From assembly GCF_056712565.1 (NCBI RefSeq), contig NZ_CM160072.1: 64,000 nucleotides of DNA. The stretch is one strand, 5' to 3'. This document shows positions 30,135 through 36,100 of this stretch, in pieces (the first letter of the stretch is position 1; each line of letters starts with the position of its first letter). Position numbers: made by a program.

Positions 30135-33100
30135 ATTTGTGCTCTGATGCCTGATGCGACGCTGACGCGTCTTATCATGCCTACAATCTGCACCCGAACC
30201 GTAGGCCGAATAATGCGTTCACGCCACATCCGATCTGAAAATTCTTAAATCAATCTTCGCCGGGGGCCATGCGCTCCCGCTGTTGTGGAGGTTACCCATG
30301 TGCGAATTGCTCGGGATGAGCGCCAACGTCCCTACCGATATCTGCTTTAGTTTCACCGGACTTGTACAGCGTGGTGGTGGAACCGGGCCACATAAAGATG
30401 GCTGGGGCATTACCTTTTACGAAGGTAAAGGCTGTCGCACATTTAAAGATCCGCAACCCAGCTTTAATTCCCCCATCGCCAAACTTGTCCAGGACTACCC
30501 GATAAAATCCTGTTCGGTGTTGGCTCATATTCGCCAGGCTAATCGGGGCGAGGTGGCGCTGGAAAATACTCACCCGTTTACCCGCGAGTTATGGGGGCGT
30601 AACTGGACTTATGCCCATAATGGGCAACTGACGGGCTACAAATCACTGGAAACCGGCAACTTCCGCCCGGTCGGTGAAACCGATAGCGAAAAAGCCTTTT
30701 GCTGGCTCCTGCATAAATTAACGCAGCGTTACCCGCGCACACCGGGCAACATGGCGGCAGTGTTTAAATATATCGCCTCACTGGCGGATGAACTGCGGCA
30801 GAAGGGCGTTTTCAACATGCTACTTTCGGATGGGCGCTATGTAATGGCGTATTGCTCGACTAATTTACACTGGATCACCCGCCGCGCGCCGTTTGGCGTG
30901 GCAACGTTGCTGGATCAGGATGTGGAAATCGACTTCAGCTCGCAGACCACACCGAATGATGTGGTCACGGTGATTGCGACACAGCCGTTGACGGGCAATG
31001 AAACCTGGCAAAAGATTATGCCAGGTGAATGGCGCTTATTTTGCCTCGGGGAGTGTGTAGTTTGATGCCAGTTGTGGCTGCACAACTTCGTGGCTTAACG
31101 GCTTGCTGACCACGTAACGGCCATTGACCACAGAAACGGTCGGTGGCTTACGGGTTTGCTCAAAGTAGTCGTAGCCCGGCTTCAGTTGCTCCCAGAAGTC
31201 CTTAAAGTTGGAATATTTATGGCGCTTCATATTGGCGTCGGTCATGCGGAACGGATAAATACTCACTTGCACGCTCGGCTGACCAAACACCAGCGCACCA
31301 GTAACGAACTGGAAGATCTCATCAATACCCTGATTGGTCATCGCGTAGCAGCCGATGGAAACACAATCGCCGTGAATCATCAGGTATTTCCCTTCATAAC
31401 CATGCGCACGGTCATAGGCGTTTGGGAATCCAATATTAATCGCTTTGTAGTAACGGCTGTCTGGTTTTAACTGATTACGCTGGACGCTATAAAACCCTTC
31501 CGGGCTTTTGAAATCGCCCTGACGCTGTTTTGGCCCTAAGCCGCCGGAATATTTACAGATTTTATAGCTGTCGAGCAGTTGATATTGCTCGCCCATTTTG
31601 ACGTAGAGATCGAGCGTACGTTCTTCCTTGAAGATCTGGATGTAGACAGGGGATCCCATCAACTGCTGCTTATACTCTTTGCTCACTGGCGTGGTCGAGC
31701 TACTGCTGCCCAGCAAACCGGCAAACGAAACGCACGGGATCAACAACATCGCAAGAATTAATGCGATTTTACGCATACTGCTTATTCCTTGATAAAACGG
31801 TTACACACGCCAGGACGGCAAAATGAATCCCAAATCGGAATAGTCTGGATTTGGAAGGCTCACATTATCACCAAAAGAGTTTTACGCAAGCCTGTCGGCG
31901 CAGGGTTTACAAATTTAGCACAGGGGCAGTTTTCAAGAGTCCGAAAAGCGCATGGATTGTAGATTTATTTCTTATTTCCTAAGATTATGAAACCGCAATA
32001 GTAATATGCAAATAAGCAATTAATAATCCCGTTTACTCCTCCGGTCTTTTAAAATTCTCACCTTCATTCAGCTGGTTTATGTCCTTCATGTCTTCGTTCT
32101 TGCACGGCAGATTTCTGCATCCAGGCGTGTTTTCGTTATGCGTTTTGCTCCCTTTACTCGCCAGCGCCACCACATCACATATCTCTTTTAGCTACGCCGC
32201 CCGCCAGCGGATGCAAAACCGTGCGCGTTTATTAAAACAGTACCAAACCCATCTGAAAAAGCAGGCCAGCTATATTGTGGAAGGCAATGCCAAAAGCAGA
32301 AGGGCGCTGCGCCAGCATAATCGGGAGCAGATAAAACAGCATCCAGAATGGTTTCCTGCGCCGCTCAAGGCGAGTGACAGACGCTGGCAGGCGTTGGTGG
32401 AGAATAATCATTTCTTAAGCAGCGACCATCTACATAACATCACCGAAGTGGCGATTCACCGCCTGGAGCAGCAGCTAGGTAAGCCTTATATCTGGGGGGG
32501 CACGCGGCCTGATAAAGGCTTCGACTGTAGCGGGTTGGTTTTTTATGCCTACAACAAGATCCTTGAGGCTAAGCTCCCGCGCACGGCCAATGAGATGTAC
32601 CACTACCGTCGGGCAACGATTGTGGCGAATAACGACCTGCGCCGGGGAGATTTGCTGTTTTTCCATATCCACAGTCGTGAGATAGCCGACCATATGGGCG
32701 TATATCTTGGAGACGGTCAGTTTATCGAGTCACCGCGCACCGGGGAAACCATTCGGGTAAGTCGGTTAGCCGAACCTTTCTGGCAGGACCATTTTTTAGG
32801 CGCGCGACGGATTTTGACGGAAGAGACGATTTTGTAGGCCGGATAAGGCGTTCACGCCGCATCCGGCGGTTGTGCGCCGGTGTCTGATGCGACGCTACGC
32901 GTCTTATCATGCCTACAAATCTGTGCATTTTTTGCGAGCCGCTTTCCCGATTTAACACAACATCATTGCCGACTTTTCCTTTTCTTCTTACCGTTGAGAA
33001 AAAGGAGTCGTTATGTCTGAATATCGTCGTTATTACATCAAGGGGGGAACCTGGTTTTTCACGGTAAATTTACAGAATCGTCGAAACCAACTTTTGACCA

Positions 33101-36100
33101 CCCAGTTTCAGACGCTCCGTAACGTTATTATTAAAGTTAAGCGAGACAGACCTTTTGAAATTAACGCTTGGGTAGTTTTGCCGGAGCATATGCATTGCAT
33201 ATGGACATTACCTGAAGGCGATGATGATTTTTCCTCGCGCTGGCGGGAAATTAAAAAGCAATTTACCCATGCTTGTGGATTGAAAAATATCTGGCAACCA
33301 CGTTTTTGGGAACATGCTATCCGCAATACCAAAGACTATCGCCATCATGTTGATTATATTTATATAAATCCAGTAAAACATGGTTGGGTAAAACAAGTGA
33401 GTGATTGGCCATTCTCAACGTTTCACCGCGATGTTGCGAAAGGGTTATATCCCATCGATTGGGCGGGAGACGTAACGGATTTTAGTGCTGGGGAGCGTAT
33501 CATTTTATAGCTGTGCGCCGATGCCTGATGCGACGCAGACGCGTCTTATCATGCCTACAAAACCGCGCTCACCCGTAGGCCGGATAAGGCGTTCACGCCG
33601 CATCCGGCGGTTGTGCACCGGTGCCTGATGCGACGCAGATGCGTCTTATCATGCCGACAAAACCGCACTCACCCGTAGGCCGGATAAGGCGTTCACGCCG
33701 CATCCGGCGGTTGTGCACCGGTGCCAGATGCGCCGCTACGCGTCTTATCATGCCGACAAAACCGCACTCACCCGTAGGCCGGATAAGGCGTTCACGCCGC
33801 ATCCGGCAATATGCACCGATGCCGGATGCCTACATCAACGCCCCCATTATCTTCAACTCCAGCTCATCCAGCACTTCGTTATACGACAGCACATGCAGCC
33901 CTGGTGCAAACAACCTTGCGTAGCGCGCCAGCAAAGGGCGCAGCTGCGGCGGCACCAGCAGCACCGGATCTTTCCCCGCCGCTTTCATCTGCTCCTTCAC
34001 CTGCGGCATCGTGATCTGAAACTGGTTGAGCATATTCGGGTCCACCGGCACGCTATCGAGCATCACTTTGCCGGCCTGTTGCGCCTGATTCACCACGTTG
34101 GTCAGCAGATTTTCCAGCTCATTATTCAGCGTATACACCGTCAGCTCCTGCTTGCGAACGAACGGATGGGTAATGCTGCGCCGCAGCACCAGGCGCACAT
34201 CGGCCGTCAGCAGAATATGATCTTTAGTCACCGCACTACTGGCGACCAACACGGTGGCGATGGTGACGATATCGCGCAGGGAAACGCTTTCAGTCAGTAG
34301 TGTGCGGTACACTTTCAGCAACTGGCTGTAATTGAGCGCCGCGCTCAAATCTTCCGCCAGTCGCGGTGCCATCGACGACAAACGGTTATGCAGCTGAGTA
34401 ATATCGTCATAGTTAAACAAATCAGGAATATAGCTGCGCACAATCTTATTCACATGGGTGGCAATTACGCTGGCGCTGTCGATCACCTGATACCCCATAT
34501 TCAGCGCCTTCGCTTTCTGCGCGGGCTGAATCCAGGTGACCGGCATCCCGTACGCCGGGTCGTTCCCCAGCACGCCGTCTATCTCGCCGTAGGTTTCGCT
34601 GGAGGGCAGGGCCATCAGTTTATCCGCCGGAATATCCGCTTCATCAGCCTTAATGCCGTTGATGAAAATAGCGTACTGGCTGGGCTTGAGGCGGAAGTTT
34701 TCCCGAATACGGATCTCCGGCAGCAGCACGCCGTTGCCGTCGGAAATCACCTGACGTACGCCGCGAATACGCTGGGTGAGCGGGTTGCCCTGCGCTTTAT
34801 CCACCAGCGCCACCAGTTTGTAGCCGAGGCTTAAACTGATAGGTTCGATCAGCGGAATAGTTTCCCAACTGACCTGTTGCTCGCTGGTTTCTGTCATCGT
34901 ACGGGTTAGCGTTTCGAGGCTTTTCTCTTCCGCCTCCGCCGCTTGCGGGCGCTTGCTCATCCGCCAGCCGGTAAAACCAAGCAGGGCGCTGAACATCAGG
35001 AACGGGAAATGCGGCATTCCCGGCACCACCGCCAGCACGAACATAATTCCAGTGGCGGTGTAGAGAACCGACGGGCTTGCCAGCAACTGATTACGCACGT
35101 CATGGGCGATATCACCGTTATCGCTGACGCGGGTGACGATAATCGCCGCCGCGGTGGAGAGCAGCAGGGAAGGGATTTGCGCCACCAGCCCATCGCCGAT
35201 AGTCATCAGCACATATTGCTGGAAGGCGGCGTCGGCGCTCAGGTTGTATTTGAAGATCCCGATACAGACGCCGCCGATCAGGTTGATCGCCAGAATCATC
35301 ATCCCGGCGATGGCATCCCCGCGCACAAATTTTGATGCCCCGTCCATTGCGCCGTAGAAATCGGCCTCGCTGGCAACATCTTTACGCCGGGTTTGCGCCT
35401 GCGTCTGGTTGATCAACCCGGCGTTAAGATCGGCGTCAATCGCCATCTGTTTGCCGGGCATCGCGTCCAGGGTAAAGCGGGCAGAAACCTCGGAAATACG
35501 CTCGGCCCCCTTGGTGACGACGATAAAGTTGATTGTCAACAGCGTCAGTAAATCCGAGCGTGAAAGCATTATCGCCGCGCTGCACGGGCAGTCGATTTTT
35601 AACGGTGGTGGGTTGTCGCCGTTAAATAAAATCAGCCCGTCTCATCTGCCAAAACCTGCCACCGTGGCGGTGCCGGAAGAGACGGAGAAAAAAGCGCGCG
35701 ACGTCAACGAGAAAACGGCGCTGTTGAAGAAGAAATCCGCCACCGAGCTTGGCGAGCTGGCGACCAGTATCAATACCATCGCCCGTGATGCGCATATGGA
35801 AGCGAATCTGGAGATGGAGATTGTTCCCCAGGGATTACGCGTGCTGATTAAAGACGACCAGAACCGCAATATGTTTGAACGCGGCAGCGCGAAGATTATG
35901 CCGTTCTTTAAAACTTTGCTGGTGGAGCTTGCGCCAGTGTTAGACTCGCTCGATAACAAAATTATTATTACCGGGCATACCGATGCGATGGCCTACAAAA
36001 ACAATATCTACAACAACTGGAACCTTTCGGGCGATCGCGCGCTTTCGGCTCGTCGGGTGCTGGAAGAGGCCGGAATGCCGGAAAATAAAGTGATGCAGGT

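What the first reader, a model, noticed from the sequence alone, without database searches (positions are those of the whole stretch)
32835..33830. REPtron: rayT flanked by REP clusters, including about three tandem ~100-bp BIME units
The HUH tyrosine transposase RayT sits between a REP element (32835-32930) and a tandem array of about three nearly identical ~100 bp units (33511-33830), the expected substrate arrangement for RayT. The three-fold tandem amplification is noteworthy.
Basis: partly seen in the sequence, partly recalled or inferred. Interest (0 to 1): 0.3.

Follow-up and report, generated by a model that had tools for sequence, protein, structure and literature searches.

The report
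Known E. coli REPtron with BIME array
This is the well-described Escherichia coli "REPtron": the domesticated transposase gene rayT sits between short palindromic repeats, and its three-unit downstream repeat array is an ordinary strain-to-strain length variant.

Summary
An intact rayT (33013-33510, +) lies between yafL and a truncated flhA-like gene. It is 95% identical to the crystallised K-12 TnpAREP, and all catalytic residues are kept.

- **Upstream:** one BIME, that is two REPs (a y REP plus an inverted z2 REP, 32834-32916), not a single REP.
- **Downstream:** a tandem array (33511-33833; period 100, 3.2 copies, units 90-95% identical). It is three [inverted z2 + y] units of the BIME-2 type plus a 13-nt remnant of a seventh REP.

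The interpretation as a REPtron is correct, but none of it is new. Ton-Hoang et al. (PMC3333891) reported that E. coli rayT always sits between yafL and fhiA, with one BIME on the left and a variable number on the right.

In complete genomes sampled here the right array has about 0.5, 1, 2 (K-12), 3, 4 or 5 units. Two strains with 0/578 mismatches in rayT carry 4 and 5 units, so three units is unremarkable. Independent assemblies carry the identical array, so it is not an artefact.

Small extras:
- Two of the three z2 REPs have GTCG instead of the GTAG that RayT needs.
- GTAG/CTAC motifs supply the stop codons of both neighbouring genes.
- Rfam naRNA4 matches the BIMEs.

Interest is low.

The parts
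32079..32837 (+). yafL (NlpC/P60, C40 peptidase), left neighbour. Its TAG stop codon (32835-32837) lies inside the GTAG of the left y REP.
   Evidence: Pfam NLPC_P60 9.5e-33; RefSeq annotation yafL; coordinates
32834..32868 (+). Left y REP (35 nt): 5' GTAG, imperfect hairpin with AA/GC bulge
   Evidence: Pattern scan with 0 mismatches; ssDNA hairpin -12.2 kcal/mol, z -3.3
32869..32880 (.). Head-to-head short linker (12 nt, GTTGTGCGCCGG) of the left BIME
32881..32916 (-). Left z2 REP (36 nt, GTAG on the minus strand; an iREP relative to rayT)
   Evidence: hairpin -6.3 kcal/mol. Together with the y REP it matches Rfam naRNA4 at 66.5 bits, above the gathering score
32917..33012 (+). 96-nt spacer with a ribosome-binding site (AAGGAG) in front of rayT. 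The consensus scan found no sigma-70 promoter.
33013..33510 (+). rayT / tnpAREP, 165 aa, an intact HUH Y1 nuclease
   Evidence: PDB 4ER8 6.4e-114; NF047646 177.9 bits; 95.2% identical to K-12 with H59-M60-H61, Y115, N119, H123, E161, R78, K82 and R97 all conserved
33511..33611 (.). Array unit 1: 11-nt lead-in linker, z2 iREP 33522-33558 (GTAG intact on the minus strand), 16-nt tail-to-tail linker, y REP 33575-33609
33612..33711 (.). Array unit 2: linker, z2 iREP 33622-33658 (GTCG instead of GTAG), 16-nt linker, y REP 33675-33709
   Evidence: The y(unit 1)-linker-z2(unit 2) stretch matches Rfam naRNA4 at 70.5 bits
33712..33810 (.). Array unit 3 (99 nt): linker, z2 iREP 33722-33757 (36 nt, GTCG, two extra stem mismatches, hairpin no better than shuffles), 16-nt linker, y REP 33774-33808
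   Evidence: fold z-score +0.16
33811..33833 (.). Start of a fourth unit: linker plus a 13-nt remnant of an iREP (GCCGGATGC|CTAC, 33821-33833) that has lost about 23 internal nt. Its CTA (33830-33832) is the stop codon of the flhA-like gene on the minus strand.
   Evidence: a full z2 iREP sits at the same place in BL21-type and Nissle genomes
33830..35569 (-). lfhA/fhiA: N-terminally truncated FlhA-like pseudogene of the Flag-2 cluster, right neighbour, convergent with rayT
   Evidence: Pfam FHIPEP 5.5e-188 covering profile positions 99-655; RefSeq note 'incomplete; missing N-terminus'

Best explanation
This is the single chromosomal REPtron of Escherichia coli. The domesticated IS200/IS605-like HUH Y1 nuclease gene rayT (tnpAREP, formerly yafM) is wedged between the convergent genes yafL and lfhA. 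It is bordered on the left by one y/z2 BIME and on the right by a BIME-2-type tandem array of three 100-nt [z2 iREP, 16-nt linker, y REP, 12-nt linker] units plus a REP remnant.

How it works, from published biochemistry on the 95%-identical K-12 enzyme. RayT is a monomer that binds a single-stranded REP hairpin. Binding requires the 5' GTAG and the AA/GC bulge. The enzyme cleaves at CT dinucleotides in the neighbouring iREP and linkers through a 5'-phosphotyrosine intermediate, and it can rejoin strands. It acts in trans on REPs across the genome and does not move itself.

In this window the four y REPs, all with GTAG on the rayT-coding strand, are predicted competent binding sites. Only two of the four z2 REPs keep GTAG.

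My inference is that the number of units in the right array changes by whole-unit gain and loss, and that it does so much faster than point mutation. The most likely cause is ordinary replication slippage or unequal recombination between the 100-nt direct repeats. RayT-catalysed strand transfer is the alternative. Three units is simply one allele of that polymorphism.
For: Identity of the gene: PDB 4ER8 match at 6.4e-114; NCBIfam REP_Tyr_transpos 177.9 bits against a cut-off of 80; all catalytic and DNA-contact residues conserved (residues from PMC3479197).

Locus: yafL and the FHIPEP pseudogene flank it. RefSeq genomes annotate yafL-rayT-flhA', matching 'between yafL and fhiA' in PMC3333891.

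REP anatomy. The z2 (37 nt) and y (35 nt) definitions come from PMC8266576. The BIME-2 definition (y + z2, short linker, tandem copies) comes from PMC3333891.

Polymorphism: the left side is always one BIME. The right array is about 0.5 units in KFu014, 1 in O157:H7, 2 in K-12 and AVS0068, 3 in the window, ZJ3920 and EC21Z-101, 4 in SCU-387 and 5 in 04-00955. SCU-387 and 04-00955 have 0/578 mismatches in the spacer plus rayT yet carry 4 and 5 units. Three units in 04-00955 are 100% identical.

For slippage rather than RayT:
- The expanded unit type carries a z2 with GTCG and a decayed hairpin.
- Any single GTAG change abolishes binding and cleavage in vitro.
- The enzyme is auto-inhibited and Mn-dependent.
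- rayT-less Nissle still holds a three-BIME array at this site.
- The terminal iREP lost 23 nt between ATGC direct repeats, a slippage-type deletion.
Against: Nothing contradicts the identification. On the mechanism of copy-number change, every unit keeps a perfect y REP with GTAG, and CT dinucleotides are present in the linkers and iREPs. RayT acting from the y REPs alone could therefore also produce whole-unit gains, as in the Ton-Hoang amplification models. The sequence data cannot separate the two routes. No in vivo activity of E. coli RayT has been shown in the papers read, and no promoter was found for rayT in the consensus scan.
Confidence: 0.9

Rival explanations
1. The array length is set by RayT itself acting in cis. 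The enzyme binds the y REPs on the transiently single-stranded plus strand, cleaves at CT sites in the iREP and linker, and adds or removes whole BIME units by strand transfer or primed synthesis (the Ton-Hoang models). The gene-proximal array is therefore a hot spot of RayT activity.
For: In vitro, K-12 TnpAREP cleaves and recombines BIMEs from this very locus and makes products containing an additional REP (PMC3333891). All y REPs are perfect, with GTAG and the bulge. CT dinucleotides occur in every unit. Copy number varies between strains with identical rayT. The plus strand has a weakly positive GC skew, consistent with it being the lagging-strand template, where hairpins can form.
Against: The expanded units carry RayT-incompetent z2 REPs (GTCG). 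The enzyme is auto-inhibited. BIME arrays elsewhere also vary between strains, and rayT-less Nissle keeps an array here. 100-nt direct repeats are unstable without any dedicated enzyme (general knowledge).
Confidence: 0.35
2. What matters about the array is its host function, not its role as a transposase substrate. BIME-2 arrays between convergent genes may act as mRNA 3'-end stabilisers or transcription barriers, as DNA gyrase-binding sites, or as a source of HU-binding nucleoid-associated RNA of the naRNA4 type. This is compatible with the main explanation.
For: Rfam naRNA4 (RF02564) matches above its gathering score at 33578-33655 (70.5 bits) and 32837-32913 (66.5 bits). The array fills the whole gap between the rayT and lfhA stop codons, and the REPs provide the stop codons of yafL and lfhA. 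Stable hairpins were predicted. REP roles in mRNA stability, gyrase binding and nucleoid condensation are cited in PMC3333891 and in the preprint 10.1101/2024.07.17.603846.
Against: lfhA is a pseudogene and rayT is weakly expressed or repressed, so protecting their mRNAs has no obvious value. No intrinsic-terminator pattern was found. The naRNA4 model in effect describes any y-z2 BIME, so the hit shows homology and not expression. Copy number is not conserved.
Confidence: 0.3
3. The three-unit array is an assembly artefact, a mis-resolved repeat.
For: None found. This is only the generic risk attached to 100-nt tandem repeats.
Against: An identical array is present at 100% identity in independently assembled complete genomes (ZJ3920, SF-468). 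Units differ at 5-10 positions, so they are individually resolvable. Related strains show clean 2-, 4- and 5-unit alleles.
Confidence: 0.01

Closest known systems
E. coli K-12 MG1655 REPtron (rayT/tnpAREP/yafM with flanking BIMEs; Nunvar 2010 PMC2817692, Ton-Hoang 2012 PMC3333891, Messing 2012 PMC3479197, PDB 4ER8)
   Same: Same locus (yafL-rayT-lfhA) and orthologous protein (157/165 identical, all functional residues kept). The left side is the same single y/z2 BIME, and the right side has the same [z2 iREP, linker, y REP] units followed by the same truncated iREP at the lfhA stop codon.
   Different: There are three right-hand units instead of two. The unit period is 100 nt against about 101 in K-12, with different tail-to-tail linker sequences. 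About 7-8% nucleotide divergence. Two z2 REPs carry GTCG. This strain lacks dinJ-yafQ upstream of yafL.
BIME-2 family of bacterial interspersed mosaic elements (Gilson/Bachellier nomenclature, as summarised in PMC3333891)
   Same: Alternating y and z2 REPs in inverse orientation, short head-to-head linker (12 nt), tandem repetition, and copy number that varies between strains.
   Different: None of substance. I did not assign the linkers to the named s/l/r motif classes.
REPIN-RAYT systems (Bertels & Rainey; Pseudomonas fluorescens and enterobacterial group 2 RAYTs)
   Same: A single-copy, vertically inherited RAYT gene flanked by inverted REP doublets of about 85-100 nt.
   Different: Here the doublets are tandemly arrayed, not dispersed singletons. 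The REPIN concept adds nothing beyond the BIME description at this locus.
IS200/IS605 insertion sequences (TnpA Y1 transposases, e.g. IS608, ISDra2)
   Same: HUH plus single-Tyr chemistry on single-stranded DNA, with subterminal imperfect hairpins flanking the gene.
   Different: Not a mobile unit: it sits at a fixed locus across E. coli. The enzyme is a monomer, the GTAG is bound by the protein and does not pair with the cleavage site, and the Pfam Y1_Tnp score is below its cut-off (18.1 against 23 bits).
naRNA4 / REP325 (Rfam RF02564)
   Same: Sequence and structure homology of the y-linker-z2 doublet; two matches above the gathering score.
   Different: REP325 is a different locus. Transcription and HU binding of the RNA from this array are untested.

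Membership tests
REPtron (TnpAREP/RAYT gene + flanking REP/BIME) | [quoted passage not shown] | tested here: met
   4ER8 6.4e-114; NF047646 equivalog 177.9 bits against a cut-off of 80; H59-M60-H61, Y115, N119, H123 and E161 present
REPtron (TnpAREP/RAYT gene + flanking REP/BIME) | Gene flanked on both sides by cognate REP/BIME sequences | tested here: met
   2 REPs on the left (32834-32916) and 6 REPs plus a remnant on the right (33522-33833)
REPtron (TnpAREP/RAYT gene + flanking REP/BIME) | Cognate REPs carry 5' GTAG and an imperfect palindrome with the AA/GC bulge plus T11 and G32 | tested here: met
   All four y REPs meet it, as do the left z2 and the unit-1 z2. The unit-2 and unit-3 z2 REPs fail on GTAG (GTCG).
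REPtron (TnpAREP/RAYT gene + flanking REP/BIME) | In E. coli: unique position between yafL and fhiA/lfhA, single copy per genome | tested here: met
   Position met. Only one copy was seen in the 64-kb window; genome-wide copy number was not tested here, since no search was made with the rayT coding sequence alone.
REPtron (TnpAREP/RAYT gene + flanking REP/BIME) | Enzyme binds and cleaves the single-stranded flanking REPs | not testable with these tools
   Shown in vitro for the 95%-identical K-12 protein only (PMC3333891, PMC3479197)
BIME-2 | Composed of y and z2 REPs in alternating orientation | tested here: met
   y 35 nt and z2 36-37 nt, alternating + / -; lengths as defined in PMC8266576
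BIME-2 | Short head-to-head linker (no long L linker with an IHF site) | tested here: met
   Head-to-head linker 12 nt, tail-to-tail linker 16 nt. An IHF motif was not scanned for, but there is no room for the long L linker.
BIME-2 | Occurs as tandem copies, with a number that varies between strains | tested here: met
   3.2 copies; about 0.5 to 5 units in other strains
IS200/IS605 insertion sequence | Pfam Y1_Tnp domain above threshold; element mobile and multi-copy as a unit | tested here: not met
   Y1_Tnp 18.1 bits, below the 23-bit cut-off. The locus is fixed in 3,400+ genomes and in the literature.
naRNA4 (Rfam RF02564) | Covariance-model score above the gathering threshold | tested here: met
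   70.5 and 66.5 bits against 59.5. Expression as an RNA is not testable here.

The most novel reading that the evidence does not exclude
The rayT-proximal array may be a true in vivo hot spot of RayT action. Copy number changes (3, 4 and 5 units) occur while the adjacent 578 nt accumulate no substitutions. The units that expand are those whose z2 partner has lost GTAG and its hairpin. That would imply amplification driven solely by the y REP on one strand, the presumed lagging-strand template. It would give a natural, strand-specific in vivo read-out of an enzyme whose cellular activity has never been shown directly.
Probability: 0.12. Interest if true: 0.4.

Novelty: already known. Interest (0 to 1): 0.1.

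Why it matters
It matters little as a discovery. The locus, the enzyme, its crystal structure, the flanking BIMEs and the variable number of right-hand BIMEs were all published in 2010-2012. The practical points are for annotation. The array should be annotated as REP/BIME repeats. The 'hypothetical protein' CDSs that pipelines call inside it are spurious. Its length is a fast-evolving marker that separates otherwise very close strains. The GTCG observation gives a cheap handle for testing whether local BIME amplification needs RayT at all.

Tried and rejected
- **Fuzzy-regex REP scan.** It missed most copies, so I replaced it with a Hamming-distance scan of the 17-nt REP head.
- **Pfam at the default threshold.** It gave no family for RayT. 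At E<=10 only Y1_Tnp appears, below its cut-off. NCBIfam and PDB searches settled the identity instead.
- **Consensus promoter and terminator scan of 32700-34000.** It found nothing, so no statement on rayT transcription or REP-dependent termination can be made from it.
- **z1/z2 naming.** My own recollection of the names was the wrong way round, and the literature is inconsistent: the REPtron z REP is called z2 in PMC3333891 and z1 in the Figure 1 legend of PMC3479197. I followed the explicit lengths in PMC8266576 (z1 29 nt, z2 37 nt).
- **Full census of array lengths over all 5,426 genomes.** The search tool lists at most 60 rows and splits arrays longer than the query, so only an evenly spaced sample and eleven fetched loci were analysed.
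- **Assembly-artefact reading.** Rejected.
- **Locating unit-junction points to separate slippage from CT-site cleavage.** The expanded units are identical, so junctions cannot be placed.
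Full report
**What is in the sequence**

The window is E. coli chromosome. The stretch 32700-33950 is 100% identical to strain ZJ3920 and matches 5,425 of 5,426 complete genomes at least in part. RefSeq annotation of the identical stretch reads lpcA, yafJ, dpaA, yafL, rayT, flhA' (truncated), lafU, dinB.

In window coordinates:
- yafL is 32079-32837 (+; NlpC/P60, 9.5e-33).
- rayT is 33013-33510 (+).
- The FlhA-like pseudogene is 33830-35569 (-; FHIPEP, 5.5e-188, N-terminal part of the profile missing).

Tandem Repeats Finder gives a single array at 33512-33829 with period 100, 3.2 copies, 92% matches and score 531. The repeat finder gives three copies spaced 100 and 99 nt apart. Gapped identities between units are 95, 93 and 90 per 100.

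A head-motif scan finds 12 REPs in the 64-kb window, eight of them around rayT. Exact anatomy:
- **Left:** y REP 32834-32868 (+), 12-nt linker, z2 REP 32881-32916 (GTAG on the minus strand).
- **Right:** an 11-nt lead-in, then three units of [z2 iREP, 16-nt tail-to-tail linker, y REP, 12-nt head-to-head linker]. The z2 REPs are at 33522-33558, 33622-33658 and 33722-33757. The y REPs are at 33575-33609, 33675-33709 and 33774-33808.
- **End of the array:** a 13-nt iREP remnant at 33821-33833.

The 'three ~100-bp units' are six REPs plus a stump.

**The gene is RayT and looks functional**

- It matches the crystallised K-12 TnpAREP (PDB 4ER8) at 6.4e-114.
- It matches the NCBIfam equivalog NF047646 at 177.9 bits against a cut-off of 80.
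- It differs from the K-12 protein at 8 of 165 positions.
- It keeps the HUH motif H59-M60-H61, the catalytic Y115, the metal ligands N119, H123 and E161, and the DNA-contact residues R78, K82 and R97. These residue roles come from PMC3479197.
- Pfam Y1_Tnp scores only 18.1 bits, below its cut-off of 23. This fits RAYTs being a separate clade from IS200/IS605 transposases.

**REP quality**

All four y REPs carry GTAG, T11, the A12A13/G26C27 bulge and G32. Each folds as ssDNA to the expected bulged hairpin (-12.2 kcal/mol, z -3.3 to -4.5).

The z2 REPs are poorer:
- The left z2 and the unit-1 z2 keep GTAG.
- The unit-2 and unit-3 z2 have GTCG.
- The unit-3 z2 also has two more stem mismatches and folds no better than shuffled sequence (z +0.16).

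Messing et al. report that changing any one of the four GTAG bases abolishes cleavage and detectable binding. The published substitutions were not necessarily A-to-C, so predicting that these two z2 REPs are not RayT sites is an inference.

**Comparison with what is known**

Ton-Hoang et al. (PMC3333891) analysed 110 E. coli/Shigella genomes. They found tnpAREP in two-thirds of them, always between yafL and fhiA. [quoted passage not shown]

The same paper defines BIME-2 as y + z2 with a short linker, occurring in tandem copies whose number varies between strains. Corneloup et al. give y = 35 nt, z1 = 29 nt and z2 = 37 nt. The array here is therefore a textbook BIME-2 array in a textbook REPtron.

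I fetched eleven loci and counted REPs.

| Strain(s) | State of the right side |
|---|---|
| KFu014 | about half a unit |
| O157:H7 | 1 unit |
| K-12, AVS0068 | 2 units |
| window, ZJ3920, EC21Z-101 (different last unit) | 3 units |
| SCU-387 | 4 units |
| 04-00955 | 5 units |
| Nissle | no rayT; an uninterrupted three-BIME array remains |
| EC12 | hicAB replaces the whole structure |

The last two states are both described in the paper. The left BIME is single wherever rayT is present.

SCU-387 and 04-00955 have 0/578 mismatches to the window in the spacer plus rayT, and 04-00955 has three identical consecutive units. Unit number therefore changes faster than point substitution.

In an evenly spaced sample of the 5,461 matching records, the K-12-type two-unit span is the commonest. 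Window-like three-unit spans make up about two of 33 rayT-positive rows. Between 76 and 129 records have best places at >=99% identity.

The identical array in independent assemblies rules out an artefact.

**Mechanism**

Shown in vitro for the K-12 orthologue:
- It is a monomeric, Mn-dependent, auto-inhibited nuclease.
- It binds ssREP through GTAG and the bulged stem.
- It cleaves at CT dinucleotides in the iREP and linkers through a phosphotyrosine intermediate.
- It can transfer strands, giving products that contain an extra REP.

Inferred here: the y REPs on the rayT-coding strand are the competent sites. That strand has a weakly positive GC skew, consistent with it being the lagging-strand template.

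For the copy-number changes I favour slippage or unequal recombination between the 100-nt direct repeats, for these reasons:
- The unit type that expands has a GTCG z2 with a decayed hairpin.
- The enzyme is strongly down-regulated.
- The rayT-less Nissle keeps an array here.
- The terminal iREP shows a slippage-type 23-nt deletion between ATGC repeats.

RayT-catalysed amplification from the intact y REPs is not excluded, and the sequence data cannot decide between the two.

**Other readings**

Rfam naRNA4 (RF02564) matches the y-linker-z2 doublets above its gathering score at 33578-33655 (70.5 bits) and 32837-32913 (66.5 bits), with sub-threshold hits on the remaining doublets and on the opposite strand. 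This shows homology with REP325-type BIMEs, which are reported to give HU-binding RNAs. It does not show that RNA is made here. The consensus scan found no sigma-70 promoter or intrinsic terminator in 32700-34000.

**Verdict**

Both the observation and the interpretation are correct, but the feature is already known in every respect that the finding raises. The three-unit array is an ordinary allele of a documented polymorphism. Interest is about 0.1.

Noticed in passing
window 32834-32837 and 33830-33833: The stop codons of both neighbouring genes are supplied by REP tetranucleotides. The yafL TAG lies inside the GTAG of the left y REP, and the lfhA TAG (minus strand) is the CTA of the terminal CTAC remnant. 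This is a known tendency of GTAG REPs (PMC3733652).
   Followed up: partly
window 33593-33802 (minus strand); L007 795-1289; L008 994-1338: RefSeq/PGAP annotates 'hypothetical protein' CDSs inside the REP array (159 bp in ZJ3920, 345 bp in SCU-387, 495 bp in 04-00955). Their length scales with the number of BIME units, so they are almost certainly spurious ORFs made of repeat sequence.
   Followed up: partly
window 31777-32078: Only about 300 bp separate dpaA (yafK) and yafL. The dinJ-yafQ toxin-antitoxin pair found at this place in K-12 is absent from this strain and from ZJ3920.
   Followed up: partly
window 33821-33833: The last iREP of the array is a 13-nt stump (GCCGGATGC|CTAC). BL21-type and Nissle genomes have a full z2 iREP at the same place. 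The missing roughly 23 nt are bounded by ATGC direct repeats, which suggests hairpin-stimulated slippage deletion.
   Followed up: partly
window 33578-33655 and 32837-32913: Rfam RF02564 naRNA4 (nucleoid-associated ncRNA 4) matches above its gathering score (70.5 and 66.5 bits against 59.5). The family in effect models any y-linker-z2 BIME, and it hits both strands.
   Followed up: partly
window 30101-30240 and 44669-44703: Other REPs in the window: a y/z2/degenerate-y cluster between lpcA (gmhA) and yafJ, and a solitary y REP at 44669. All five z2 REPs in the window share the GCATGATAAG variant, which adds an extra A.G mismatch at the stem foot.
   Followed up: no
window 16001-24000: This stretch has low G+C (0.435) and an unusually strong positive GC skew (+0.19) compared with the rest of the window. 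Large ORFs lie at 17952-22519. I did not identify them.
   Followed up: no
window 48538-48613 and 48614-64000: tRNA-Thr(CGT) is followed by DNA of 38-41% G+C. This looks like an island integrated at thrW, as with CP4-6 in K-12. I did not examine it.
   Followed up: no
L004 764-1261 (O157:H7 strain F1273): rayT is annotated as a pseudogene with an internal stop in this O157:H7 genome, which also has the shortest complete right array (one unit).
   Followed up: no
literature (PMC3333891 vs PMC3479197): The z REP of the K-12 REPtron is called z2 in Ton-Hoang 2012 but z1 in the Figure 1 legend of Messing 2012. By the lengths given in Corneloup 2021 (z1 29 nt, z2 37 nt) it is z2.
   Followed up: yes
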